From: an uncultured Candidatus Saccharibacteria bacterium | Lineage (GTDB): Bacteria > Patescibacteriota > Minisyncoccia > Phycocordibacterales > JACOZG01 | Assembly: GCA_964591715.1 (NCBI GenBank) | Contig: CAZQDR010000003.1 | Span: 269-64,268 of the forward strand | DNA: 64,000 bases | Direction of reading: 5' to 3' | Part shown: positions 25,792-38,470 of the stretch, piece by piece | Layout of the letters: every line of letters begins with the position of its first letter | How positions within the stretch are numbered: position 1 is the stretch's first letter | Made by a program: the position numbers and the translations under genes | Notes under the pieces: model-generated | What the model saw: only the letters and a program-made list of their open reading frames with translations | Database searches by the model: none | What the model was told of the DNA's origin: nothing

Positions 25792-26376
25792 TTAGAGGTG
25801 ACTGTGGTGTAAGGCTTGATTAATAATTTCGAGCGCCAGCTGCTGGCGCTCGGCCGACAACTCGAGCGGCGCCATGTCCCAGTCGTTGAAAGCAAAAATG
25901 ACCTCGAGCTCCGGGCGCTCCTCTACATAACCCAAACGGCGCAAAAGCCGCGCCACCCAAATTAGCTCAAAATTGACTAGCTCCGCTTCGGTCAAAAAAG
26001 GTCGTTCCAAAAAATGGGCTCCGCTTTTAAACTCCTCAAAAAAATCGGGCTGGGCCACTTCACCGGTTACTAAGCGCAAAATCAGTTGGGCAACCCGGGC
26101 CAGGAGCTGCAGGCGCACCGCTTCGCGGTGCGCCGCCAATTCCCCCGCCTCAACATGCACCACGCGCCAGACCTCCCGGCCTCGCACCAACGAGACCTCC
26201 GGCCAACTAAATAATTGCAGATTATAACGGAGCTTAGACTTTAATTCCCGCAAACCTTGGGCGGTAGCGTTAACCAAACCGTGATCACGCGTATACAAAG
26301 TCAGCGTCCGGGTTGCTTCGCTCGCCTCTCGGACACCCAACACGACCGCTGGCGTGGTGTAAATTTGATGCGACAT
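25792..26376 (-). CDS. recO: DNA repair protein RecO (short form)
   Basis: N-terminal OB-like TPAVVLGVREASEATRTLTLYTRDHGLVNATAQGLRELKSKLR. The start overlaps the ileS stop (TAATG). Confidence 0.6.
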   Translation of the reverse strand: MSHQIYTTPAVVLGVREASEATRTLTLYTRDHGLVNATAQGLRELKSKLRYNLQLFSWPEVSLVRGREVWRVVHVEAGELAAHREAVRLQLLARVAQLILRLVTGEVAQPDFFEEFKSGAHFLERPFLTEAELVNFELIWVARLLRRLGYVEERPELEVIFAFNDWDMAPLELSAERQQLALEIINQALHHSHL

Positions 26377-29300
26377 TATTCGTAACGAAAAGCGCTCGCG
26401 CAGGTCGCGACTTTTATTTCGTGCTCATACTTCTCGGCCAAGCTCTGTTTGGCAATCGGTATAACCACTTCCGCTTGTTCTCCTGCCTTCAAGCCGCTTT
26501 CTTTACGCCAATCCTGAATTTCGCGAATCAAATCGCGCAGTTCCCCCTCCTCCTTAAGTTCAGGAGTGATAGTCAAATCAAGTTCTACCACTGCCGACAA
26601 GTTAGGATCAAAGATTACCGCTTTAACATTTACTTCGTCTTGGATAAGTTGAGCCAGTTCAGCGGAGAGCGGAGCACTTTTGGCTTTAAGTTCTTTTAGT
26701 GGTTGGCGAACTTTAATCGCGGCTTTGGCTCGCGCCTCTAAGCCACCCGAGACGAGCTGGCGCACGAGTTGCATCGCGGTAATAATTTCTTCGTCGCTCT
26801 TGTCGGCCTCGGGCCAATGCTCTAAGTGCACGCTCTCCGCGCCACCTTTCAATTTCAAATAAATTTCCTCAGCAACAAAGGGCGTAAATGGGGCCATCAA
26901 GCACGACAACACCAACAGCGTCCGGCGGAGCGTATCCATCACTGCCTGCGCCTCAGCGGGATCAGTGGGCTTAAAGCGATCGCGCGACCGGCGTAAATAC
27001 CAAGTTGATAAATCGTCCACAAATTCGTCGATGGGCCGCAAAGCCCGATCAAGCTCATAAGACTCCATCGCCGCTGTTACTAATCCAATCACTTCGTTAA
27101 GCCGGTCGTTAATCCAACGATCTAAAATATGAGTACTAGCGGCATCGCTCGGAACGTGGGCGCCGGCGTACAGTTCATAAAACGCCACCACGTTCCGCAG
27201 ACGGCCCAGCACCCGATTACTGGTCTCGCGCAAACCACGCTCCGAAAAATTAAATTCTTCAGCATGTACCGCTGGTGATGAGAGCAAGTAAAAACGCAAC
27301 GCGTCCGCGCCAAAAGTATCAATCGTGGGTTCCAGATCGGGATAATTTTTTAGACGCTTAGACATCTTTTGGCCATCCTCGGCTAAAATCAAACCATTCA
27401 CTACGACACGCTTAAAGGGGGGGCGATTAAAAAGTCCCAGCGAGAGCACCAGCAAAACATAAAACCAGCCGCGAGTTTGATCCAAACCTTCGGCAATAAA
27501 GTCCGCGGGAAAATGCTTTTCAAACTCTTCCTTGTTGGCAAACGGATAATGTAACTGGCCGTAAGGCATGGAACCGGACTCAAACCACACATCAAAAACA
27601 TCGGGTACGCGCGCCATCTCGGCACCACACTCGCAACGGAGTTTAACCTCATCAATATACGGCCGGTGAAAGTCGAGCTCGTAGGCTTGATTGTGCGGGA
27701 GAGCGACAAAGGGCAGTGGTCGCGATTCGGCGGTTTTTAAAAAGTAACGATCCTCACTCTGCGCGGCTTCGGCCTCGTGATCATTAAAGCCTTGGGCTCC
27801 CACCATCAATAACCAGCCCACCGCTTCGTGAGTGATCAGTAAAATATTTTTACCCGCATAACGAGCGTCAATCTCATACAGCGACTGGAGCGCCCGCGCC
27901 TTCACCTCATGAAAGTTTTCCCCCGCTGGTGGCGCCTTAGTAAAGCGCTCGGCTCGACCACTGAAAAAAGCGTGGAACTTAGCCACCGACCCCCCCTCCA
28001 ATTCGCCAAAGCCCACCTCGCGCAGGCGCTCATCCAAAACCACTTGATCGGCCGGTACTCCTAAAGCCTCCGCCATGAGCGCCGCCGTCTCTCGTGTTCG
28101 CAAAACTGGCGAAGTAATGATCAGATCAATTTTTTCCTTAGCCAAAGTTTTACCGGTGGCTTCTACTTGCTCACGGCCATTTTCCGTTAAATGATTGTCG
28201 CCATCGAGCGCCGAGGTAACAATGCTTTGTACGTTCGACTGGGCCTCGCCGTGACGCATGACCCAATAATTATTTTTTGGCTGCCGCTTAGCAGTGAGCT
28301 CCTCGAGTGAGCCAATCACTTCAATTTTTTTGCAGCTTTCGCAACGCCAGACCGGTAGCGGCGCCCCCCAGTAACGCGAACGCGATACTGCCCAATCGCG
28401 CGCCCCCTCCAGCCATTTACCAAAGCGACCGTCTTTAATATATTCCGGCACCCAAGTTACGCCCTCGTTTGCCTTCAAGAGTGCCTCCTTCATCGTACTT
28501 ACAGCAATAAACCAGGATGATGACGCGTAGTTTAAGAGAGGTGTATCGCAACGCCAACAATGAGGGTAGGGGTGAGTAATTTTTTCCTTCGCAAAAAAGG
28601 TGCCATGCTCCTGCAAATATTTTAAGACTGCAATGTCAGCCGAGAGACGCTCCTTCTCATCTTCACTCTTGGGTTTAACTGGCAGACCGGCAAAATCTTT
28701 GACCGCCGCTTTAAAGTGACCGCTAGTATCAACGTGCTGGATAAAAGGTAAATTTTTAGCCTGACCCAACTTTAAGTCGTCCTCGCCGAATGCCGGTGCA
28801 ATATGGACAATGCCGGTACCATCCTCGGTTGTCACAAAATCCGCGCCGTAAACCTGCCAACCGTTCTCCTTATTTTTCAGCGTCGTATCATTCTGATAAT
28901 AATCAAAAACTGGTTGATACTTTTTACCCACCAATTTTTGTCCGGTAAATGTTTCTTCAATGGTAAAATTATCGGTTAAAACTTTTGTGGCCAGCGCCTC
29001 CGCCACAATCAACTTAATTCCGCCCTTTTCGACTCGAACATAGTTCAGTTCGGGATTAACCGCCAGCGCCACATTACCTGGCAGCGTCCAAGGTGTCGTG
29101 GTCCAGGCCAACAAGTAAGTCCCCGGCTCATCAACCAGTTCAAATTTTACCGTCACCGACAAATCCGTGACATCTTTGTAACCCTGATTAACCTCAAAGT
29201 TAGCCAGCGTTGTCTCACAGCGCGGGCACAAATGCATAGACTTGTAACCTTCGTAGGCCAAGCCCTTGTCGTAGAGTTGTTTAAAAATCCACCACACCGT

Positions 29301-29771
29301 CTCGGTGTAACTGGAGTCCATCGTTTTATAATCGTTCTCCATGTCCACAAAACGGCCAATGCGGGGAATAATCCTTTTCCACTCGTCAGCATAACGGAGC
29401 ACGCTCTCTCGTGCCTTTTGGTTAAAGACGTCAATCCCCAACGCTTCAATATCCTTTTTGGTTTTTAGACCCAACTCTTTCTCGATCAGGTTCTCGATCG
29501 GCAAGCCGTGACAATCCCAACCCCAGCGACGCGCCACTCTAAAGCCGCGCATGGTTTGATAGCGTGGAATAGCGTCTTTAATCGAGGTCGGCAGCAAGTG
29601 ACCAAAGTGAGGCAAACCGGTCGCAAAGGGCGGCCCATCATAAAAAACGTACTCGCCTTTGGGCGCATCTTTAGCCAGGGACTTGGCGAAAATTTGGTGA
29701 TCTTGCCAGAACTTAAGGATCTCTTCCTCGCGTTTGGCAACATCGGATTTTTGGGGCAGAGCTTCGGCCAT
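26376..29771 (-). CDS. ileS: Isoleucyl-tRNA synthetase with an inserted histidine-phosphatase domain
   Basis: PPFATGLPHFGHLL (HIGH region), the editing-domain WTTTPWTLPGN, and KMSKRLKN. The ~195-aa insert carries RHGE...SPVLRTRETA...THE motifs; see findings. Confidence 0.9.
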   Translation of the reverse strand: MAEALPQKSDVAKREEEILKFWQDHQIFAKSLAKDAPKGEYVFYDGPPFATGLPHFGHLLPTSIKDAIPRYQTMRGFRVARRWGWDCHGLPIENLIEKELGLKTKKDIEALGIDVFNQKARESVLRYADEWKRIIPRIGRFVDMENDYKTMDSSYTETVWWIFKQLYDKGLAYEGYKSMHLCPRCETTLANFEVNQGYKDVTDLSVTVKFELVDEPGTYLLAWTTTPWTLPGNVALAVNPELNYVRVEKGGIKLIVAEALATKVLTDNFTIEETFTGQKLVGKKYQPVFDYYQNDTTLKNKENGWQVYGADFVTTEDGTGIVHIAPAFGEDDLKLGQAKNLPFIQHVDTSGHFKAAVKDFAGLPVKPKSEDEKERLSADIAVLKYLQEHGTFFAKEKITHPYPHCWRCDTPLLNYASSSWFIAVSTMKEALLKANEGVTWVPEYIKDGRFGKWLEGARDWAVSRSRYWGAPLPVWRCESCKKIEVIGSLEELTAKRQPKNNYWVMRHGEAQSNVQSIVTSALDGDNHLTENGREQVEATGKTLAKEKIDLIITSPVLRTRETAALMAEALGVPADQVVLDERLREVGFGELEGGSVAKFHAFFSGRAERFTKAPPAGENFHEVKARALQSLYEIDARYAGKNILLITHEAVGWLLMVGAQGFNDHEAEAAQSEDRYFLKTAESRPLPFVALPHNQAYELDFHRPYIDEVKLRCECGAEMARVPDVFDVWFESGSMPYGQLHYPFANKEEFEKHFPADFIAEGLDQTRGWFYVLLVLSLGLFNRPPFKRVVVNGLILAEDGQKMSKRLKNYPDLEPTIDTFGADALRFYLLSSPAVHAEEFNFSERGLRETSNRVLGRLRNVVAFYELYAGAHVPSDAASTHILDRWINDRLNEVIGLVTAAMESYELDRALRPIDEFVDDLSTWYLRRSRDRFKPTDPAEAQAVMDTLRRTLLVLSCLMAPFTPFVAEEIYLKLKGGAESVHLEHWPEADKSDEEIITAMQLVRQLVSGGLEARAKAAIKVRQPLKELKAKSAPLSAELAQLIQDEVNVKAVIFDPNLSAVVELDLTITPELKEEGELRDLIREIQDWRKESGLKAGEQAEVVIPIAKQSLAEKYEHEIKVATCASAFRYE

Positions 29772-33073: not shown

Positions 33074-33502
33074 CTACTTGCGGCCCGTGCTACCAAAAGC
33101 ACTGGTGCCCCGAGAAGAATCGGCCAGTTCAGCGGCTTCTTCCAACTCGGCGACCGCGACGGGATAAATGATAAGTTGAGCCACCTTATCCCCCACTTCA
33201 ACGGTATATGCCTTGTCGCTCAAATTAACCAAGTGAACATTATACTCGCCGCGATAACCAGCATCGAACACGCCACCCATGGTATGTAATCCTGCTTTAG
33301 AGATACTCCCCTTGTCTTTAATAATCGCCGCATAACCAGCTGGGAACTCTAAGGCAAAACCCAAATGGAATCGCGCGTGATCACCCGGCAGAATAGTTTG
33401 TTCTTCTAGAGCATACAAATCTAATCCGGCGTCTCCAGGATGACCATAGGTTGGCTGCTTTGCTTCCGGCTTTAATTTTTTAAACTTTATGGACAGGGAC
33501 AT
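33074..33502 (-). CDS. dut: dUTP diphosphatase (trimeric dUTPase)
   Basis: GDAGLDLYA, GVFDAGYRGE, and the C-terminal RGTSAFGSTG motif. Confidence 0.9.
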   Translation of the reverse strand: MSLSIKFKKLKPEAKQPTYGHPGDAGLDLYALEEQTILPGDHARFHLGFALEFPAGYAAIIKDKGSISKAGLHTMGGVFDAGYRGEYNVHLVNLSDKAYTVEVGDKVAQLIIYPVAVAELEEAAELADSSRGTSAFGSTGRK

Positions 33503-34187
33503 GTTTCTTCACTAATTTATAAACTTGCTCATGGACCGCTTCGGGCGTTTGGCAAACCATTCCGGCACAACACTCAATGCGGCGCCACTTTTTATCTTTC
33601 TCGGCTAAGGCCAGCGCGCTCTGGCGCGAATTTTTAAGATGGAGCAGATTATCCTCGGCAACATCTTTGCGGCCCTTTAAATATTTCTTACGGCGCTTGG
33701 CGATCTTTTTCTCAAGCCACAGCTTACTCACCTCAAATGGCACGTCTAAATAAATCACCAAATCTGGTTTGGGAATTTTAAAAACGCCGTACTCCATTTT
33801 ATCAAGCCAAGTTAAAAACTCCTGACGCTTTTTAGGATCAGCGATTTTGCCACCCTGGTGGATTTGGTTAGCACTGACATAACGATCAGCGACAACAACA
33901 AAGCCAGCCGCGAGCCACTCTTTAATTTTGGCACTAGTCTCAAAACGGTCCGCGGCATAGAGCACTGAGGCTAGGCGTGGATCAGCCTGAATAAAATCAC
34001 CATGGAGTCCGGAAAGATATTCGCCAATTAAAGCGCCAAAAAAATTATCATAATAACGAGGGAAGTCGATCGTTTTAACCGGCACCTTCTCTTTTTTCAA
34101 CCGGTCAGCTAAAAGTTTAGTTTGCGTCGCCTTGCCTGAACCATCAATCCCGTCAATCACCACTAACCGTCCTGCCGTTTTAGTCAT
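33480..34187 (-). CDS. tmk: Thymidylate kinase
   Basis: VVIDGIDGSGKATQTKLL P-loop and the DRY motif (VADRYVSAN). Confidence 0.85.
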   Translation of the reverse strand: MTKTAGRLVVIDGIDGSGKATQTKLLADRLKKEKVPVKTIDFPRYYDNFFGALIGEYLSGLHGDFIQADPRLASVLYAADRFETSAKIKEWLAAGFVVVADRYVSANQIHQGGKIADPKKRQEFLTWLDKMEYGVFKIPKPDLVIYLDVPFEVSKLWLEKKIAKRRKKYLKGRKDVAEDNLLHLKNSRQSALALAEKDKKWRRIECCAGMVCQTPEAVHEQVYKLVKKHVPVHKV

Positions 34188-35445
34188 TTTGTTTTTTAAT
34201 TTTTCTTAAAATTTGATCAATCTTGCCGGCCAATATTTTTACCTGTTTTTCTTTGGCACCGCGGGTAGTCTCGGCCGCTAAACCAATCCGGATTCCCGAC
34301 GGGTCAACGGGCGGCCGAGTATCAAAAGGAATCGCATTTTTGTTCACAATAATCCCCGCCTGCTCTAGCGCCTCACTCGCTGCCTGACCACCAACACCGA
34401 CGCCGTTTAACCAAGTGTCCAGCAAGATCAAGTGGGTGTCGGTGCCATCACTGACTAGCCGCCAGCCCAGCTTCTTTAACTCCATTGCTAGCGTTTTGGT
34501 GTTCTTGATAATTTGAGTGGCGTACTTCTTAAACGCCGGCGTGGCTGCCTCGGCAAGCGCCACCGCCACGCCGGCAATTTGGTTAACATGCGGCCCCCCT
34601 TGGATACCCGGGAAAACCGCTTTATCTATTAAGTCAGAAATAAGCTTCGGTTCGGGCGCAGACTTTCTTCCATCACGGTCAACGAGGGAAATGATTCCAG
34701 AAAGCCCGCGCCCAACCTGCGCCGGTACCCGCCGGCTGAAGATTAATGCCGCTCTCGGACCACGCAAAGTTTTGTGGGTGGTAGTGGTCACGACGTCAGC
34801 GTATGGGAAAGGGCTCGGATGGACGCCCGCGGCCACCAGACCAGCAATGTGCGACATGTCTACCATCAGGATTGCTCCGCAGGCGTCGGCAATCTCGCGA
34901 AACTTTTTGAAATTAATCTGACGCGGATAAGCCGTAAAACCGGCGACAATAATATTTGGTTTTTCTTTAACTGCCAAAACTTTAACCGCTTCGTAATCTA
35001 ACTGTTCACTATCACGGTCAACGGTAAACGGGATTTGCTGCCAGGCTTTGCCAGTTAGGGAGACTTTGTGACCGTGCGTTAAATGACCGCCATGCGCTAG
35101 CGACATGCCCATAATTTTCCCCCCGATTGGGACGAGCGCAGTGTACACCGCCAAGTTGGCCGGTGAACCAGAAAGCGGCTGAACATTCACGGCCCACTTC
35201 TTTGGGCTAAGTTTAAAAAGTTTCAGCGCTCGTTCTTGGCAAAGTCGCTCTACCTGATCAATGATTTTATTGCCGCCATAATAACGCGCGCCCGGATAAC
35301 CCTCGGCATACTTATTATTTAATTCCGAACCCAGCGCCGCCAAAACATCGGCGGAAACATAGTTCTCTGACGCAATTAAATTAACTACCTTCTGTTGTCG
35401 CTCTCGCTCGGCCTTGATCAATCGTTCAATCGGTTTATCTTTCAT
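34180..35445 (-). CDS. glyA: Serine hydroxymethyltransferase
   Basis: NLIASENYVS and the PLP-lysine segment VVTTTTHKTLRGPR. Confidence 0.95.
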   Translation of the reverse strand: MKDKPIERLIKAERERQQKVVNLIASENYVSADVLAALGSELNNKYAEGYPGARYYGGNKIIDQVERLCQERALKLFKLSPKKWAVNVQPLSGSPANLAVYTALVPIGGKIMGMSLAHGGHLTHGHKVSLTGKAWQQIPFTVDRDSEQLDYEAVKVLAVKEKPNIIVAGFTAYPRQINFKKFREIADACGAILMVDMSHIAGLVAAGVHPSPFPYADVVTTTTHKTLRGPRAALIFSRRVPAQVGRGLSGIISLVDRDGRKSAPEPKLISDLIDKAVFPGIQGGPHVNQIAGVAVALAEAATPAFKKYATQIIKNTKTLAMELKKLGWRLVSDGTDTHLILLDTWLNGVGVGGQAASEALEQAGIIVNKNAIPFDTRPPVDPSGIRIGLAAETTRGAKEKQVKILAGKIDQILRKIKKQND

Positions 35446-35454
35446 GTTTAAGAT

Positions 35455-35943
35455 TTATTTTTTACGACTGCCGTGGAATCTGAGATGGGCATCATCCGTA
35501 ACATACAGCGTTTTTATCCCCGCCTCCAGCATCCGCTCCCAGCAAGGTTGGCAGGCCCACCAGTGACCCCACAAATAGACTTCCGCCCCCGCGGTGACTT
35601 CCCCATTTTTTATTGCATCCGCCACGGCTCGTGATTCTGAGTGAAGCTTGTAATTAGAGCACCCCGGACAAAGCCAATACTTTTGGCCAGTTTTAATTTT
35701 TAACTTGTGCCGGACACACCAACCCTTGGTGTGAAGATCAGCCAAAAAAGCATTCTTTAGTGCTGATTGATTGGCTCCCCGACCGATAATTTTACCGCCC
35801 TCAACAACCACCGCCCCACTTGGCTGATTACGTTCCGTGGCCGACTGAAAACGCATTTTCTTGGCTTCAGCCATAAATTGGTCCGTCTCAGGCACCAACT
35901 TAATCTCGCAACCAGCAGGCAAATAAGGGTAGATAATCGTCAT
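35455..35943 (-). CDS. Cytidine/deoxycytidylate deaminase-fold zinc enzyme (dCMP deaminase-like) with an extra Cys-rich insert
   Basis: An HSE zinc/catalytic motif (KLHSESRAV) and PCxxC (CQPCWERM). The insert is CVRHKLKIKTGQKYWLCPGC. Confidence 0.65.
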   Translation of the reverse strand: MTIIYPYLPAGCEIKLVPETDQFMAEAKKMRFQSATERNQPSGAVVVEGGKIIGRGANQSALKNAFLADLHTKGWCVRHKLKIKTGQKYWLCPGCSNYKLHSESRAVADAIKNGEVTAGAEVYLWGHWWACQPCWERMLEAGIKTLYVTDDAHLRFHGSRKK

Positions 35944-35982: not shown

Positions 35983-36819
35983 ATGACCGCCTTTGACCGA
36001 ATCTACCAGAATCTGTTAAGGCAAATCATGACCGAGGGCATTGCGGAAATGAGCGAGCGCACCGGCCACGAAACCCGGGCCATCCCCGGCCTCCACTTTA
36101 CGACCGACCTCCAAAAAGACGGCTTCCCCCTACTTACCCTGCGCAAAATACCAATTCGGGTCTTCGTGGCCGAGCAAATTTGGTTTCTCCTTGGCTCGCG
36201 CAAACCAGCCGACTTTCTGCGGGAGTACACTAAAATTTGGGATGACTTTACCAACCCAGGCGATGTCGTCACGGTCGCTTACGGTTACCGTTGGCGCAAA
36301 CATTTTGGCCGCGATCAAATCGCCCTGTTGATTGAACTTTTAACCAAGGAGCCAAGTTCGCGCCACGGCGTCGTAATTGCTTGGGATCCAGCCCAGGATG
36401 GCTTGTCGCTGTTTAAAAAGAAAAACGTCCCCTGTCCCTACACCTTTACCGTTAATATTATTGGCGGACACCTCCATCTCCACAACATGATTCGCTCTAA
36501 CGACGTCATGCTCGGCATGCCTCACGACGTGGCGGGCTTTGCTTTGCTCCAGTGCATTTTAGCCGAACGATTAGGAGTAAAGCCGGGCATTTACTCGCAC
36601 TCTATTTCTAACGCTCATGTTTACGACATTCACTACTCAGCCGCGGAAGAAATAATTAGCCGCCACAACGATCATCCTAATGTGACACTCGAGATTCCCG
36701 CCAACACCTTTGCCCGGATCGAGAACCGCGACCCGGCGATAGCCAAAGAACTAATCGATCAACTGACTAACCAGTACACACCAATGGATGCCATTAAAGG
36801 TTTACAAATTGTCCTCTAA
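35983..36819 (+). CDS. Thymidylate-synthase-family C5-pyrimidine transferase with Asp at the base-specificity position
   Basis: ThyA-like motifs DRTG-like ERTGHET, FPLLTLRK, YGYRWR, DQI, SSRHGVVIAWDP, PCP (Cys151), and RSNDVMLGMPHDVAGF (Asp182). Confidence 0.8.
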   Translation: MTAFDRIYQNLLRQIMTEGIAEMSERTGHETRAIPGLHFTTDLQKDGFPLLTLRKIPIRVFVAEQIWFLLGSRKPADFLREYTKIWDDFTNPGDVVTVAYGYRWRKHFGRDQIALLIELLTKEPSSRHGVVIAWDPAQDGLSLFKKKNVPCPYTFTVNIIGGHLHLHNMIRSNDVMLGMPHDVAGFALLQCILAERLGVKPGIYSHSISNAHVYDIHYSAAEEIISRHNDHPNVTLEIPANTFARIENRDPAIAKELIDQLTNQYTPMDAIKGLQIVL

Positions 36820-37316
36820 TGATTCCAGCGTTTATTATTGCCAGCGTGACCGCCGACGGCCTGATTGCCCGTGATGCTAGTCACGCGGCCACCTGGTCCA
36901 GCCAAGCTGATAAAAAGTTTTTTGTGACCCGAACCAAAGCCGCTGGTGCGATCATTATGGGCGCTAAAACTTTTGCCACTATTGGCCGACCCCTCCCAGA
37001 ACGCTTAAATGTGGTTTACACCCATCAACCTTCACCTCACCCTGAAGTCTTGGCCACCGCTTTGCCGCCAGCGGAACTACTGGCGGAACTTGAGCGCCGG
37101 GGCATTAGGGAGGCGGCCATTTGCGGGGGCAGTTCAATTTATACGCTCTTTCTTAAGGCCGGCCTGGTCCAGAAAATTTATTTAACTGTTGAACCACGCC
37201 TCTTCGGCCAAGGCCTCTCGCTTTTTAATCAGGAACTGGACCTCACCCTCAAGCTTTTGTCGACTCAACAATTAGCCCCAGACGTCGTATTATTGGAGTA
37301 TCAAGTAATCACCTAA
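36819..37316 (+). CDS. RibD C-terminal / DHFR-fold reductase
   Basis: IIASVTADGLIA...IIMGAKTF...GGSSIY pattern. Coupled to the upstream gene by a TAATG overlap. Confidence 0.6.
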   Translation: MIPAFIIASVTADGLIARDASHAATWSSQADKKFFVTRTKAAGAIIMGAKTFATIGRPLPERLNVVYTHQPSPHPEVLATALPPAELLAELERRGIREAAICGGSSIYTLFLKAGLVQKIYLTVEPRLFGQGLSLFNQELDLTLKLLSTQQLAPDVVLLEYQVIT

Positions 37317-37318
37317 TC

Positions 37319-37960
37319 ATGGCTGTTATCACCAAAGAAGACATTATCGAACGAATCAAGGGAGGGAGCTTAAAGTTTGTCCCCAATCTCGACGTCTTCC
37401 AGCTTCAAAGCCACTCGGTTGACTTGCGGCTGGGCTTTACTTTTATGCTGCCCAAGATTTGGCATCTCACTACCCGCGGCCGCGAGTCACTCGACATCCT
37501 CCATTTTGATAAACGGACTCAAGAATATTTTGATATCGTAGAACTAGAGGAGGGTCAATACTTTGATCTCTTGCCTCAAGAATATATTTTGGTTTCCACC
37601 CTCGAGACTTTAACTGTCCCTAAAGATTTGATGGCTGTGCTTTATCCGCGCTCCTCGACCAATCGCAAAGGTTTGTCGCTCGACTTAACGGGCATTATTG
37701 ATTCGGGTTACGAAGGCCAGCTAAGCTTACCGATTCGCAATAATACTCGTTCGCAAACAGTGCGACTTTATCCGGGCGAGCGTCTCTGCCAAGTGGTTTT
37801 TGAAGAACTAACCCAAACAATTAACCCGCGCCAAAGTAAGTATCACCAGCGTGACATCATTGACGGCGTTCAGCGCGAAGCCGAAACGGAAGTTAAGTTG
37901 TTGTTAGCCGGAAAAATAAAAGAGTTAAAGCGTGACCACGCTGTCGAGGGCTTGATATAG
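37319..37960 (+). CDS. dCTP deaminase/dUTPase-fold protein lacking the deaminase Glu
   Basis: SVDLRLG, PRSSTNRKGL, and IIDSGYEGQLSLPIRN. Pro138 sits where E. coli Dcd has Glu138. Confidence 0.7.
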   Translation: MAVITKEDIIERIKGGSLKFVPNLDVFQLQSHSVDLRLGFTFMLPKIWHLTTRGRESLDILHFDKRTQEYFDIVELEEGQYFDLLPQEYILVSTLETLTVPKDLMAVLYPRSSTNRKGLSLDLTGIIDSGYEGQLSLPIRNNTRSQTVRLYPGERLCQVVFEELTQTINPRQSKYHQRDIIDGVQREAETEVKLLLAGKIKELKRDHAVEGLI

Positions 37961-38470
37961 CTCTTCCACCTCGCCATTGTTATTGATCACCACCGAAGCG
38001 GCGTCTTTAAGCGACCGGATTTGAATCTCGGTTTCCAGTTGCTGATCTTTTTGAAATTGCTCCCAAGTTTTGCCGTTATCATCTGGATTCTCACCGCGAA
38101 CTGATAAACGCTTAAATCGAACCTCCGGGTCAGCCTCAAGATAAATTAATTTAAATTGGGGTAACTTTTGGAGAGCCTTAATGTCAGGCAAGCGACGGAT
38201 ACCATCAATGACCACCAGATCAGTCTTGGCGCCCGCCGCGTCCTTGGCCACTATCTCGGAAAATAAATCTTCGCCGAAGGTCTGGCGCAAGGCCAGCGAC
38301 AGTGCCGACATGTTCTCTCGCGTCTCGGTTAGATACAAGCGAGCCATAACGTCGCGCAGTGGCGTAGAAAAGCGATACGACTCGGCGTTAAACTTTTTAG
38401 CTAAATATTTCGTACTGAACGTCTTTCCTGAAGCCATCTCCCCCGTCAAACCAATAATTAATTTAGCCAT
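37925..38470 (-). CDS. P-loop nucleotide kinase (dNMP-kinase / CoaE-like)
   Basis: GLTGEMASGKT P-loop, YRFSTPLRDVMA, VIDGIRR, and terminal VINNNGEVEELY. This resembles T4 gp1-type dNMP kinases, from memory. The 3' end overlaps the convergent dcd-like gene by 36 nt. Confidence 0.5.
   Translation of the reverse strand: MAKLIIGLTGEMASGKTFSTKYLAKKFNAESYRFSTPLRDVMARLYLTETRENMSALSLALRQTFGEDLFSEIVAKDAAGAKTDLVVIDGIRRLPDIKALQKLPQFKLIYLEADPEVRFKRLSVRGENPDDNGKTWEQFQKDQQLETEIQIRSLKDAASVVINNNGEVEELYQALDSVVTL

What the first reader, a model, noticed from the sequence alone, without database searches (positions are those of the whole stretch)
37319..37960. Dcd-fold protein in the same operon lacks the catalytic deaminase glutamate
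The protein has the dCTP deaminase/dUTPase-fold motifs SVDLRLG, PRSSTNRKGL and IIDSGYEG. Aligned to E. coli Dcd IDPGWSGCIVLEFYN, it reads IIDSGYEGQLSLPIRN. The water-activating Glu138 is therefore Pro138 (CCG, nt 37730-37732), while the dUTPase-type Asp in IDSG is retained. This argues against deamination. It is compatible with a (d)CTP/dUTP pyrophosphatase or a nucleotide-binding role. A dCTP-to-dCMP enzyme would feed the cytosine-specific ThyA-like enzyme, as gp56 feeds gp42 in phage T4. That functional link is inference.
Basis: partly seen in the sequence, partly recalled or inferred. Interest (0 to 1): 0.55.

Follow-up and report, generated by a model that had tools for sequence, protein, structure and literature searches.

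The report
Deaminase-dead dCTP deaminase look-alike
A gene that databases call "dCTP deaminase" has lost the residue needed for deamination across a whole clade of ultra-small Patescibacteria, and it most likely clips dCTP to dCMP to feed an unusual cytosine-based thymidylate / 5-methyl-dC gene cluster.

Summary
ORF 37319-37960 (+) encodes a 213-aa Dcd-fold protein. The catalytic Glu138 of E. coli Dcd aligns with Pro138 (CCG, 37730-37732).

This is a clade trait, not a one-off. All 80 species-level relatives have Pro, written with all four Pro codons, and so do distant members, one of them on a phage-like contig.

The clade also changes other sites:
- GRSS becomes PRSS.
- F/W becomes Tyr.
- Motif 4 becomes PGERxxQ, as in Dut.
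- The nucleobase loop is one residue shorter. It carries Asp122 where E. coli Dut has its uracil-binding Asn84.
- A conserved C-terminal extension of about 35 aa is added.

The Dut-type hydrolase residues stay invariant.

Of 61 loci with enough flank, 60 have the gene beside an Asp177/Pro147 (cytosine-type) ThyA homologue. A zinc dCMP-deaminase-family gene and DHFR are usually there too. The one exception has ThyX plus a canonical dCMP deaminase.

Best reading (unproven, about 0.55): a deaminase-dead nucleotide pyrophosphatase that makes dCMP from dCTP. It would be a fold-unrelated analogue of T4 gp56. A plain dUTPase is the main rival. Public annotation as "dCTP deaminase" is probably wrong. 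I found no paper describing this clade.

The parts
37319..37960 (+). Dcd-fold protein, 213 aa (here called 'P-type DcdL'). Predicted deaminase-dead (d)NTP pyrophosphatase.
   Evidence: The ORF was found. Pfam DCD scores 1.6e-32. TIGR02274 scores 109.4 bits against a cut-off of 92.8. The AF2 model has pLDDT 89 and its best matches are Dcd and Dcd:dut structures.
37730..37732 (+). Pro138 codon (CCG), at the position of the water-activating Glu138 of E. coli Dcd.
   Evidence: Supported. Pro is invariant in 80 of 80 loci, written with all four Pro codons, and in 14 of 14 diverse clade members.
37415..37435 (+). SVDLRLG (aa 33-39). This motif-1-like element is shared with canonical Dcd (D35, R37).
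37646..37675 (+). PRSSTNRKGL (aa 110-119), motif 2. R111 and S112 bind phosphate. R116 corresponds to Dcd Arg115. P110 replaces the Gly of Dcd's GRSS, as in Dut's PRSG.
37676..37693 (+). SLDLTG (aa 120-125), the nucleobase/'allosteric' loop. It is one residue shorter than the xxHxTAG loop of Dcd. D122 aligns with Asn84 of E. coli Dut.
   Evidence: Loop alignment. The role of the loop and of the Dut Asn comes from PMC4827122 section 7.
37694..37717 (+). IIDSGYEG (aa 126-133), motif 3. D128 is the catalytic Asp of Dut-type hydrolysis. Y131 is Tyr as in Dut, where Dcd has Phe or Trp.
37772..37792 (+). PGERLCQ (aa 152-158), motif 4. It is nearly identical to PGERIAQ of E. coli Dut and resembles YGERFVQ of the archaeal dUTPase P45.
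37835..37846 (+). SKYH (aa 173-176), the Dcd-type C-terminal K-Y-x-x motif. There is no Dut motif V.
37856..37957 (+). Clade-specific C-terminal extension (aa 180-213) with two predicted helices. E191, G198, L203 and K204 are conserved. Canonical Dcd lacks this extension.
35983..36819 (+). ThyA homologue of cytosine type, first gene of the operon. Asp182 (GAC, 36526-36528) sits at E. coli Asn177. Cys151-Pro152 (36433-36438) sit at Cys146-His147.
   Evidence: Supported. The significance of positions 177 and 147 comes from PMC8670742.
36819..37316 (+). DHFR-like gene. Its start overlaps the TS stop, and its stop lies 2 nt before the DcdL start.
35455..35943 (-). Zinc dCMP/cytidine-deaminase-family gene (HSE...CQPC), divergently transcribed from the TS operon.
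   Evidence: Supported. It is present in 71 of 80 loci.
34180..35445 (-). Reading-frame-based assignment as GlyA / serine hydroxymethyltransferase, the supplier of CH2-THF. It was not scanned against a domain library.
   Evidence: ORF and translation. Homologues occur in 51 of 80 loci.
33480..34187 (-). dTMP kinase (Tmk).
33074..33502 (-). Canonical trimeric dUTPase (Dut) with C-terminal motif V.
   Evidence: Supported. TIGR00576 scores 111.9 bits against a cut-off of 102.55.
37925..38470 (-). T4-gp1-like dNMP kinase family gene. It is convergent with DcdL and overlaps it by 36 nt.
   Evidence: Supported (phrog_139, 1.3e-18). It is found in only 4 of 80 related loci.

Best explanation
The gene encodes a member of a distinct clade of the Dcd/dUTPase-superfamily trimer fold that can no longer deaminate. 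It most likely acts as a Mg-dependent nucleotide pyrophosphatase that converts dCTP to dCMP + PPi, and possibly dUTP to dUMP as well.

**Proposed mechanism (inferred).**
- Dut-type hydrolysis, with Asp128 activating the water that attacks the alpha-phosphate.
- Arg111, Ser112, Arg155 and Gln158 hold the phosphates.
- Tyr131 stacks on the deoxyribose.
- Pro138 removes the deaminating water-activating carboxylate.
- The shortened base loop, with Asp122 in place of Dut's uracil-binding Asn, favours the 4-amino group of cytosine.

**Proposed role (inferred).** The dCMP feeds a monophosphate-level pyrimidine module encoded next door. That module holds a cytosine-type ThyA homologue (dCMP to 5-methyl-dCMP, with DHFR and SHMT recycling folate) and a zinc dCMP-deaminase-family enzyme (to dTMP or dUMP), followed by Tmk. 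In this reading it is a fold-unrelated functional analogue of T4 gp56 and of the MazG/PRA-PH dCTPases of phages with modified cytosine.

**Shown:** loss of Glu, retention of the hydrolase residues, clade-wide conservation, and the synteny.
**Inferred:** hydrolase activity, dCTP preference, and the order of pathway steps.
For: 1. **Glu is lost across the clade under amino-acid-level selection.** Glu138 is Pro in 80 of 80 species loci, with four different Pro codons, and in distant members.
2. **Co-varying switches move the core towards Dut.**
   - G110P, F/W131Y and M154E, the last giving PGERxCQ.
   - All Dut catalytic and phosphate residues of motifs 2-4 are invariant: R111, S112, D128, R155 and Q158.
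   - The core aligns with E. coli Dut at 32% identity over 137 aa.
3. **There is a precedent.** The solved archaeal Dcd-fold enzymes P45 (9ln0) and T. pacificus (8y1w) have Met at the Glu site and are dUTPases. A Glu-less Dcd fold therefore gives a hydrolase.
4. **The closest solved sequences are bifunctional Dcd:dut enzymes**, which bind dCTP and release PPi: 4xjc at 2.2e-16 and 2qlp at 3.8e-12. Removing the Glu from such an enzyme leaves dCTP binding plus hydrolysis.
5. **Synteny fits a dCTP-to-dTMP route.**
   - TS(Asp177/Pro147) is adjacent in 60 of 61 loci with at least 3 kb of upstream sequence, and a CDA-family gene in 57 of 61.
   - In the window, the DHFR stop and the DcdL start are 2 nt apart.
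   - A separate zinc deaminase supplies the deamination step.
   - A route from dCTP to dTMP needs exactly PPi removal, deamination and methylation.
6. **A canonical Dut is often nearby**, in the window and in 28 of 80 loci. In L012 and L017 it lies directly downstream of DcdL, so DcdL is not simply the cell's dUTPase.
7. **L045 is a natural swap.** It has ThyX and a canonical dCMP deaminase, no TS(Asp) and no DHFR, yet keeps an unchanged DcdL. This fits a dCMP supplier and not a 5-methyl-dC-specific enzyme.
8. **Phage-like contig L086 carries the T4-like set**, with a Pro-type DcdL in gp56's place.
9. **Asp122 aligns with Asn84 of E. coli Dut**. That Asn H-bonds the uracil oxo group (PMC4827122). 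Asn to Asp is the same switch that converts ThyA from dUMP to dCMP (PMC8670742).
Against: - No enzymology exists for any clade member.
- Base specificity in this superfamily is set largely by backbone atoms and loop geometry, so it cannot be read reliably from sequence.
- The only characterised Glu-less Dcd-fold enzymes are dUTPases, and the core motifs resemble Dut, which is uracil-specific.
- Asp122 is Asp or Glu in only 9 of 12 distant clade members. It is Ala in P0125 and Gly in the phage-like P0194, although both sit next to TS(Asp).
- The seven Saccharimonadales-type loci show no separate Dut within 10 kb and do carry a Tmk-ThyX fusion, so DcdL could supply dUMP there.
- An unregulated dCTPase would drain the dCTP needed for replication. 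dTTP feedback like that of Dcd is assumed, not shown.
- Dut motif V is absent, so hydrolysis may be slow.
- The AF2 model is a monomer, whereas the active site forms between subunits.
Confidence: 0.55

Rival explanations
1. It is simply a second, archaeal-style dUTPase: a Dcd-fold enzyme that lost deamination and hydrolyses dUTP to dUMP. Its roles would be to sanitise the pool and supply dUMP, with no special relation to cytosine.
For: - The solved Glu-less Dcd-fold enzymes (P45 9ln0, T. pacificus 8y1w, S. tokodaii 2zdc) are dUTPases.
- Motifs 2-4 are strongly Dut-like.
- Saccharimonadales-type loci have a Tmk-ThyX fusion and no other Dut within 10 kb.
- L045 pairs DcdL with ThyX.
Against: - The window and at least 28 of 80 loci also encode a complete canonical Dut nearby. 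In L012 and L017 it lies directly downstream in the same orientation.
- The score against the archaeal dUTPase model NF002598 is 45.8 bits, against a cut-off of 130.
- Near-obligate linkage to a cytosine-type TS and a CDA-family gene is not explained by this reading.
- Asp, not Asn, sits at the uracil-O4-binding position of Dut.
Confidence: 0.2
2. It is a sanitising 5-methyl-dCTP (or 5mdCTP plus dCTP) pyrophosphatase. Because the cell makes 5-methyl-dCMP as an intermediate, this enzyme would keep 5mdCTP out of DNA and return it to the monophosphate pool. That would be the cytosine-route counterpart of Dut.
For: - There is strict linkage with TS(Asp177).
- Dcd-family pockets can accommodate a 5-methyl group, since dTTP binds the inactive conformation (PMC4827122).
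- The base loop is remodelled.
Against: - L045 lacks TS(Asp) and DHFR, so it has no source of 5-methyl-dC nucleotides, yet it keeps a DcdL with identical active-site residues.
- The phage-like L086 carries the gene together with a gp1-like dNMP kinase. That set looks designed to make a modified dCTP, not to destroy it.
Confidence: 0.07
3. It is a catalytically inert nucleotide-binding subunit. It might be a dCTP/dTTP sensor, or a scaffold that regulates or assembles the neighbouring TS and deaminase, using the clade-specific C-terminal helices.
For: - The deaminase Glu is lost.
- A conserved C-terminal extension of about 35 aa is unique to the clade.
- Dcd enzymes are allosteric dTTP binders.
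- Operon coupling with TS and DHFR is tight.
Against: - Every Dut-type catalytic or phosphate-binding residue is invariant: R111, S112, D128, R155, Q158 and Y131. Conservation is as high as for the TS itself, at a mean of 74% column identity.
- A pure binding protein would not need Asp128, or the gained Dut-like Pro110 and Glu154.
Confidence: 0.06
4. It is still a dCTP deaminase (or a dUMP-forming Dcd:dut) that uses a different general base, for example Asp122 or Glu132, in place of Glu138.
For: - It passes the TIGR02274 equivalog cut-off.
- The equivalents of Ser111 and Arg115 are retained.
- Asp122 lies in the base-binding loop.
Against: - Neither Asp122 nor Glu132 is conserved across the clade, whereas Pro138 is invariant.
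- In the comparison set, all 99 sequences with Glu at this site show the canonical Dcd motif pattern, and the Pro-type sequences form a separate group.
- PDB entry 1xs4 is the E138A variant of E. coli Dcd crystallised with the substrate dCTP bound, which fits loss of turnover. That E138 variants are inactive is my recollection of the Dcd literature and was not re-read here.
- A separate zinc deaminase is encoded next door in 57 of the 61 loci with at least 3 kb of upstream sequence.
- Its dUMP or dUTP product would not be a substrate for the Asp-type TS.
Confidence: 0.04

Closest known systems
[quoted passage not shown]
   Same: - These are the best sequence and structure matches: 4xjc at E = 2.2e-16, and 2qlp at Foldseek 6.3e-15 with target-normalised TM 0.89.
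- They share the long N-terminal region, the SSxxR motif, Asp128 and the K-Y C-terminal motif.
- They bind dCTP and release PPi.
   Different: - The query has Pro instead of the deaminating Glu.
- It has PRSS rather than GRSS, Tyr rather than Phe, and GER rather than GM(R/K).
- Its base loop is one residue shorter, without the H-x-T-A peptide.
- It has an extra C-terminal extension.
Monofunctional dCTP deaminase (E. coli Dcd, 1xs1; NCBIfam TIGR02274)
   Same: - It shares the fold.
- The query passes the family HMM cut-off.
- The equivalents of Ser111, Arg115 and Asp128 are present.
   Different: - Glu138 is absent.
- The allosteric HVTA loop is replaced.
- The genomic context differs: the two contexts of Glu-type relatives that I looked up had no TS nearby.
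Archaeal Dcd-like dUTPases (P. furiosus P45 9ln0, T. pacificus 8y1w, S. tokodaii 2zdc; NCBIfam NF002598)
   Same: - Both are Dcd-fold proteins that lack the Glu (Met in P45).
- Both keep SSxxR, Asp and G-E-R-x-x-Q.
- Both are hydrolases rather than deaminases.
   Different: - The archaeal enzymes are only about 155 aa, with no long N-terminal insert and no C-terminal extension.
- They have Met rather than Pro, Trp rather than Tyr, and IRSS rather than PRSS.
- The query scores 45.8 bits against a cut-off of 130 for that family.
- They have no known link to a cytosine-type TS.
Canonical trimeric dUTPase (E. coli Dut 1dud; TIGR00576)
   Same: Motifs 2, 3 and 4 are nearly superimposable: PRSx, G-[IL]-ID-S-x-Y-x-GQL and PGER-x-x-Q.
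   Different: - The query lacks motif V.
- It has a Dcd-type N-terminus and C-terminus.
- Asp122 replaces the uracil-binding Asn84.
- It scores 45.9 bits against a cut-off of 102.55.
T4 gp56 dCTPase-dUTPase and MazG/PRA-PH/DCTPP1-type dCTP pyrophosphatases of phages with modified cytosine
   Same: - The proposed job is the same: dCTP to dCMP, feeding a dCMP-specific ThyA homologue.
- The gene company is the same: TS(Asp), dCMP-deaminase family, DHFR and dNMP kinase.
   Different: - The fold is unrelated. Those are all-alpha MazG-like enzymes, whereas this is a beta-rich trimeric dUTPase-superfamily fold.
- This gene is in cellular genomes.

Membership tests
dCTP deaminase, Dcd (EC 3.5.4.13; TIGR02274 / Pfam PF22769) | Sequence and fold match to the family model above the curated cut-off | tested here: met
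   TIGR02274 scores 109.4 bits against a cut-off of 92.8. PF22769 scores 113.2 bits. Foldseek's top hits are Dcd and Dcd:dut structures.
dCTP deaminase, Dcd (EC 3.5.4.13; TIGR02274 / Pfam PF22769) | Catalytic water-activating Glu (E. coli Glu138) | tested here: not met
   It is Pro138 in the query, in 80 of 80 related loci and in 14 of 14 diverse clade members.
dCTP deaminase, Dcd (EC 3.5.4.13; TIGR02274 / Pfam PF22769) | Ser111 and Arg115 of the deamination site | tested here: met
   Ser112 and Arg116 align with them and are invariant. The Ser is also the universal motif-2 Ser of Dut.
dCTP deaminase, Dcd (EC 3.5.4.13; TIGR02274 / Pfam PF22769) | Allosteric/base loop H-x-T-A-(G/H) of Dcd length | tested here: not met
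   The loop is S-L-D-L-T-G, one residue shorter. Its role comes from PMC4827122.
dCTP deaminase, Dcd (EC 3.5.4.13; TIGR02274 / Pfam PF22769) | Converts dCTP to dUTP | not testable with these tools
   This needs an enzyme assay.
Bifunctional Dcd:dut (EC 3.5.4.30) | Catalytic Glu together with the hydrolytic Asp in one site | tested here: not met
   Asp128 is present and the Glu is absent.
Trimeric dUTPase, Dut (TIGR00576 / PF00692) | [quoted passage not shown] | tested here: not met
   TIGR00576 scores 45.9 bits against a cut-off of 102.55. No motif V is present. The C-terminus is Dcd-type SKYH plus an extension.
Trimeric dUTPase, Dut (TIGR00576 / PF00692) | Catalytic motifs 2-4: R-S, I-D-x-x-Y and G-E-R-x-x-Q | tested here: met
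   PRSS, IIDSGY and PGERLCQ are all invariant in the clade.
Trimeric dUTPase, Dut (TIGR00576 / PF00692) | Conserved Asn that H-bonds the uracil oxo group in prokaryotic Dut (E. coli Asn84) | tested here: not met
   The aligned residue is Asp122. The role of the Asn comes from PMC4827122 section 7. The equivalence rests on a pairwise alignment, not on a structure.
Archaeal Dcd-like dUTPase (NF002598; P45-type) | Family model above cut-off | tested here: not met
   It scores 45.8 bits against a cut-off of 130. Identity to P45 is 32% over 126 aa.
Archaeal Dcd-like dUTPase (NF002598; P45-type) | Dcd fold without the deaminase Glu | tested here: met
   P45 and the T. pacificus enzyme have Met (TLMLYN), and the query has Pro.
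MazG/gp56-type dCTP pyrophosphatase | All-alpha MazG/dUTPase_2/PRA-PH fold | tested here: not met
   Pfam finds only DCD, dUTPase and DCD_N. The model is beta-rich. Any resemblance is functional only.

The most novel reading that the evidence does not exclude
A large part of Patescibacteria runs pyrimidine deoxynucleotide metabolism at the level of cytosine rather than uracil.

- A Dcd-derived, cytosine-tuned pyrophosphatase would commit dCTP to dCMP.
- An Asp177-type ThyA would methylate dCMP to 5-methyl-dCMP.
- The 5-methyl-dCMP would then either be deaminated to dTMP, giving a thymidylate route that bypasses dUMP, or be phosphorylated and built into DNA.

The second outcome is suggested by the coexistence of TS(Asp) with a Tmk-ThyX fusion in Saccharimonadales-type loci and by the gp1-like dNMP kinase in this window. 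If it holds, these would be the first cellular organisms to make 5-methylcytosine DNA pre-replicatively, as phage XP12 does.
Probability: 0.25. Interest if true: 0.85.

Novelty: new variant of a known kind. Interest (0 to 1): 0.62.

Why it matters
1. **Annotation.** Well over a thousand public proteins are likely affected: 1377 database hits, of which the 120 inspected are nearly all this type. Sources that name them call them "dCTP deaminase", and the query passes NCBI's equivalog model. Yet they lack the residue that defines the reaction, so metabolic reconstructions of Patescibacteria that rely on this name are probably wrong.

2. **Enzymology.** This would be a third functional state of the Dcd scaffold, alongside deaminase and deaminase-hydrolase: a pure hydrolase, tuned by a small and clean set of switches. 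These are E138P, G110P, F131Y, M154E and a shortened base loop with Asp at the Dut Asn position. It offers a compact test of how base specificity and reaction type are encoded in the dUTPase superfamily.

3. **Biology.** The gene is welded to a cytosine-type ThyA and a dCMP-deaminase-family gene in cellular genomes. Until now that module had been discussed only for phages with modified cytosine. The question of whether these minimal cells make dTMP through 5-methyl-dCMP, or even put 5mC into DNA from the nucleotide pool, becomes directly testable with three or four recombinant proteins.

Tried and rejected
- **Relocated catalytic Glu.** I looked for acidic residues conserved only in the Pro clade.
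  - D25, E154 and E191 qualify. E154 is the Dut motif-4 Glu, and E191 lies in the C-terminal extension.
  - D122 and E132 vary in distant members.
  - I rejected this as an explanation, but it is not excluded structurally, because model coordinates could not be inspected.
- **First AF2 run.** Using only close homologues gave pLDDT 62.6 with the active-site loops below 50, and I discarded it. A deeper alignment gave pLDDT 89.
- **Viral collections.**
  - Two IMG/VR scans found nothing, and a third could not be built.
  - tblastn against 50,697 phage genomes gave only hits below 37% identity, mostly archaeal viruses.
  - The only virus-like member is therefore the metagenomic contig L086.
- **Literature.** Searches for this clade, for Patescibacteria Dcd, for a Dcd-fold dCTPase and for CPR 5mC or thymidylate found no description. 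The amoeba Dcd2 paper mentions CPR relatives, but those complement E. coli delta-dcd, so they are a different, Glu-type group.
- **Second thymidylate synthase.**
  - tblastn with T. maritima ThyX found nothing in 1.27 Mb. That screen proved insensitive, because it missed the L045 ThyX.
  - Re-screening with the L045 and L057 ThyX domains found 8 loci and none in the window.
- **Contexts of Glu-type relatives.** P0143 and P0146 showed no TS nearby. This is only two cases, so it is weak.
- **Effect of the E145 variants of M. jannaschii DCD-DUT on dCTP hydrolysis.** The primary paper is not in the searchable library, so this was not used.
Full report

Yes. ORF 37319-37960 (+) translates to a 213-aa protein. 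It contains SVDLRLG (aa 33-39), PRSSTNRKGL (110-119) and IIDSGYEG (126-133). Codon 138 is CCG at nt 37730-37732.

The protein matches Pfam DCD (PF22769, 1.6e-32). It also exceeds NCBI's curated equivalog cut-off for dCTP deaminase: TIGR02274 scores 109.4 bits against 92.8.

I checked my recalled E. coli Dcd sequence against PDB 1xs1_A and it is 100% identical. BLASTP then aligns IDPGWSGCIVLEFYN with IDSGYEGQLSLPIRN. This pairs Glu138 with Pro138, Ser111 with Ser112, Arg115 with Arg116 and Asp128 with Asp128. HMMER alignments to the solved bifunctional enzymes 4xjc and 2qlp/2qxx put their TLE Glu on the same Pro.

An AlphaFold2 model built on a deep alignment has mean pLDDT 89.0. Its best Foldseek matches are Dcd and Dcd:dut structures, with target-normalised TM scores of 0.73-0.89.

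**2. It is a clade, not an accident.**

The window is a cellular Patescibacteria (CPR) chromosome. It carries aminoacyl-tRNA synthetases, L11, a DisA-type cyclase and a Y-family polymerase.

The protein has 1377 database homologues at E <= 1e-5. The 120 best are 68-96% identical and come from Paceibacteria, Parcubacteria, Taylorbacteria and related groups. Those that carry a name are called "dCTP deaminase". Of these, 119 of 120 carry L-P-[IVLM] at the site.

An exhaustive search of 1.84 billion cluster representatives found 4748 relatives at E <= 1e-3 but only 13 at E <= 1e-30. I aligned those of the best 150 that were 150-450 aa long. In that set 19 sequences have Pro at this site, 99 have Glu and 7 have something else (Q, L, C, A, H, R, S).

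In 80 species-representative genomes, all 80 have Pro. The codons are CCT 28, CCA 19, CCG 18 and CCC 15, which is the signature of selection on the amino acid. Pro is also invariant in an alignment of 14 members that are only 26-34% identical to the phage-like member P0194, the first sequence of that alignment.

**3. What else changed with the Glu.**

I compared close members, distant Pro-type members and 94 Glu-type Dcd sequences. The clade-specific switches are as follows:

| Site | Canonical Dcd | Pro-type clade |
|---|---|---|
| Motif 2, position 110 | Gly (GRSS) | Pro (PRSS) |
| Motif 3, position 131 | Phe or Trp | Tyr |
| Position 135 | Ile | Leu |
| Position 138 | Glu | Pro |
| Motif 4, position 154 | Met | Glu (PGERxCQ) |
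| Base loop | xxHxTAG | S-L-D-L-T-G, one residue shorter |
| C-terminus | no extension | ~35-aa extension with conserved E191, G198, L203 |

These changes move the catalytic core towards Dut. I verified my recalled E. coli Dut sequence against 1dud. BLASTP then aligns PRSSTNRK-GLSL-DLTGIIDSGYEGQLSLPIRN...PGERLCQVVF with [34 protein letters not shown]...PGERIAQMIF.

All Dut residues of motifs 2-4 that bind phosphate or activate the hydrolytic water are invariant in a 60-sequence alignment: R111, S112, D128, R155 and Q158, plus the sugar-stacking Y131. The N-terminal part, the SSxxR motif and the K-Y C-terminal motif remain Dcd-like. Dut motif V is absent.

No acidic residue conserved across the whole clade could plausibly replace Glu138. 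E154 is the Dut motif-4 Glu, E191 lies in the C-terminal extension, and D122 and E132 vary in distant members.

**4. A precedent for "Glu-less Dcd fold = hydrolase".**

Foldseek also hits 9ln0 ("dUTPase P45") and 8y1w (T. pacificus dUTPase). Their sequences read WVDPGWDGNLTLMLYN, with Met at the Glu position, and YGERFVQIAF.

However, the query scores only 45.8 bits against the archaeal dUTPase model, whose cut-off is 130. It scores 45.9 bits against the Dut model, whose cut-off is 102.55. It therefore belongs to neither family.

**5. A candidate specificity switch (inference).**

Szabo et al. (PMC4827122, section 7) describe the loop just before motif 3:
- It is both the nucleobase-binding element and the allosteric loop.
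- dUTPases have altered or shortened versions of it, which confer specificity.
- In prokaryotic Dut, a conserved Asn H-bonds the uracil oxo group.

In the pairwise alignment that Asn (E. coli Asn84, in N-L-V-G-L-I-D) falls on Asp122 (D-L-T-G-I-I-D). Both residues lie six positions before the catalytic Asp.

Asn to Asp is the same switch that turns ThyA from dUMP to dCMP (PMC8670742). It is also present in the neighbouring ThyA homologue.

Asp122 is invariant in the close family, but it is Asp or Glu in only 9 of 12 distant members. This is therefore a hypothesis, not a demonstration.

**6. Genomic context.**

In the window, three genes are packed into one operon:
- the ThyA homologue (35983-36819)
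- a DHFR-like gene (36819-37316)
- the Dcd-like gene (start 37319)

The first two overlap, and the second and third are separated by 2 nt.

A zinc dCMP-deaminase-family gene (35455-35943) is transcribed divergently. Behind it on the minus strand lie SHMT, Tmk and a canonical Dut. A gp1-like dNMP kinase converges on the 3' end of the Dcd-like gene.

The ThyA homologue has Asp182 at E. coli Asn177 and Pro152 at His147. These are the two positions that best separate modified-cytosine contigs from others in the MetaGPA study.

Across the 80 loci:
- Every ThyA-like neighbour in which the site could be read has Asp177. That is 75 complete genes plus one partial ORF. At position 147, 71 have Pro and 3 have Leu.
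- Among the 61 loci with at least 3 kb of upstream sequence, 60 have this TS and 57 have the CDA-like gene.
- DHFR is within 10 kb in 51 of 80, SHMT in 51, Dut in 28 and Tmk in 26.

Distant Pro-type members repeat the pattern:
- L081 has TS(Asp)-DHFR-DcdL.
- L083 has TS(Asp)-DcdL-CDA.
- L086 is a contig with baseplate and tail genes. It carries a DHFR-like gene, DcdL, TS(Asp), a dCMP deaminase and a gp1-like dNMP kinase. This is the T4-style set, with DcdL in gp56's place.

Two Glu-type relatives that I looked up had no TS nearby.

**7. Two informative exceptions.**

L045 is a Paceibacterota genome with full flanks. It has no TS(Asp) and no DHFR. Instead it has a tandem ThyX (Pfam Thy1, 58.5 bits) and a canonical dCMP deaminase (77 bits) directly upstream of an unchanged DcdL, with a canonical Dut about 7 kb away. 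ThyX needs dUMP and no DHFR, so this is a coherent module swap. DcdL surviving it argues for three things:
- Its product is used upstream of either synthase, which fits dCMP.
- It does not act on 5-methyl-dC nucleotides.
- It is not needed as the only dUTPase.

Seven Saccharimonadales-type loci carry a 786-aa Tmk-ThyX fusion (Thy1 112 bits, Thymidylate_kin 63 bits). It sits in the same cluster as CDA, TS(Asp), DHFR and DcdL. TS(Asp) and ThyX therefore coexist in those genomes. TS(Asp) need not be their only source of dTMP, which leaves open that 5-methyl-dC nucleotides are an end product. These loci show no separate Dut within 10 kb, and this keeps the dUTPase rival alive.

**8. Mechanism proposed.**

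The evidence comes together as follows:
- The deaminase Glu is lost.
- The hydrolase residues are kept or newly gained.
- The closest solved sequences are dCTP-binding bifunctional enzymes.
- A separate zinc deaminase is always nearby.
- There is tight linkage to dCMP-using enzymes.
- A canonical Dut is frequently co-present.

From this, the most likely activity is dCTP to dCMP + PPi, possibly with dUTP as a second substrate as for T4 gp56. This would be the committed step from the triphosphate pool into a monophosphate-level route to dTMP and/or 5-methyl-dC nucleotides.

The NEB preprint 10.1101/2024.12.05.627091 gives experimental backing for the neighbouring chemistry. ThyA homologues with Asp177 next to dCMP-deaminase-family genes made 5mdC in 5 of the 7 cases tested. 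The deaminases tested are 5mC-selective and produce dT nucleotides. A MazG-type (PRA-PH) pyrophosphohydrolase co-localises with them. The Dcd-fold protein here would be a non-homologous replacement for that pyrophosphohydrolase.

In the MetaGPA supplement, the Pfam dUTPase domain is itself enriched in modified-cytosine contigs (33 versus 340, p = 2.7e-20).

**9. Comparison with known families, and novelty.**

By fold and by model score the protein is a Dcd-family member. It fails the feature that defines the reaction (the Glu) and the Dcd allosteric loop, so it should not be filed as a dCTP deaminase or as a Dcd:dut. It also fails the Dut and archaeal-dUTPase model cut-offs and lacks motif V.

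It works most like a dUTPase-type hydrolase. It probably plays the role of gp56/MazG dCTPases, whose fold is unrelated.

I found no paper that describes the clade. One paper lists the Patescibacteria thyA as ordinary thymidylate synthase.

I rate it a new variant of a known kind: a new functional subfamily of the Dcd scaffold, in a context not previously reported for cellular genomes.

**10. Limits.**

- No activity was measured.
- Base preference rests on context and on one aligned residue.
- The structural model is a monomer, and its coordinates could not be inspected.
- Whole genomes could not be scanned for other thymidylate synthases or Dut genes.
- Only two Glu-type control contexts were examined.

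Noticed in passing
window 35983-36819 (+): The ThyA homologue at the head of the operon has Asp182 at E. coli Asn177 and Pro152 at His147. Both are signatures of dCMP-specific enzymes. The same two residues occur in essentially all related loci: Asp in 76 of 76, and Pro or Leu in 74 of 74 neighbours readable at that site.
   Followed up: partly
L045 7937-9226 (+), 9293-9844 (-), 10001-10633 (+): One Paceibacterota genome replaces TS(Asp) and DHFR with a tandem ThyX and a canonical dCMP deaminase. It keeps the Pro-type Dcd-like gene unchanged next to them.
   Followed up: yes
L057 5695-8055 (-); also L047, L049, L051, L052, L067, L069: A fusion protein of about 786 aa joins an N-terminal thymidylate kinase to two Thy1 (ThyX) stretches. 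It sits in the same cluster as the CDA-like gene, TS(Asp), DHFR and the Dcd-like gene. Two kinds of thymidylate-synthase-family enzyme therefore coexist there.
   Followed up: partly
L086 5208-12585: A phage-like metagenomic contig has baseplate and tail genes and a 2126-aa Kelch-repeat protein. It carries a DHFR-like gene, a Pro-type Dcd-like gene, TS(Asp), a dCMP deaminase and a gp1-like dNMP kinase. This is a T4/XP12-style cytosine-modification set with a Dcd-fold protein where gp56 would be.
   Followed up: partly
window 35455-35943 (-): The dCMP-deaminase-family protein is very divergent: its best PDB hit is 4p9c at E = 0.0019. It has HSE and C-Q-P-C zinc motifs, plus an extra Cys/His-rich insert (CVRH...CPGC). 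It may be related to the 5mC-selective deaminases described for phages, but I could not compare the sequences.
   Followed up: no
window 37925-38470 (-): A T4-gp1-like dNMP kinase family gene (phrog_139, 1.3e-18) overlaps the 3' end of the Dcd-like gene by 36 nt in convergent orientation. It is present in only 4 of 80 related loci.
   Followed up: partly
window 26376-29771 (-): A class I aminoacyl-tRNA synthetase of 1131 aa (tRNA-synt_1 plus Anticodon_1, probably IleRS) has a histidine-phosphatase (His_Phos_1) domain at residues 503-667, where the synthetase match is split in two.
   Followed up: no
L081 6659-7696 (+): A 345-aa ORF with no Pfam or PHROG hit lies directly downstream of a distant Pro-type Dcd-like gene. 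It contains a DPSSRRAI stretch reminiscent of the ThyA 'SRR' motif. The resemblance is unverified.
   Followed up: no
Dcd-family representatives P0128, P0137, P0169, P0170, P0196, P0215, P0237: Other Dcd-family cluster representatives carry R, S, Q, L, C, A or H at the catalytic Glu position (P0128 and P0137 may be frameshifted or partial). Loss of the deaminase Glu may therefore have happened several times in the family.
   Followed up: no
window 37856-37957 (aa 180-213 of the Dcd-like protein): A clade-specific C-terminal extension forms two predicted helices, with an E-x6-G-x4-L-K pattern. It is conserved even in the phage-like member and absent from canonical Dcd. Its function is unknown. 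It could be a lid that replaces Dut motif V, or a docking element.
   Followed up: partly
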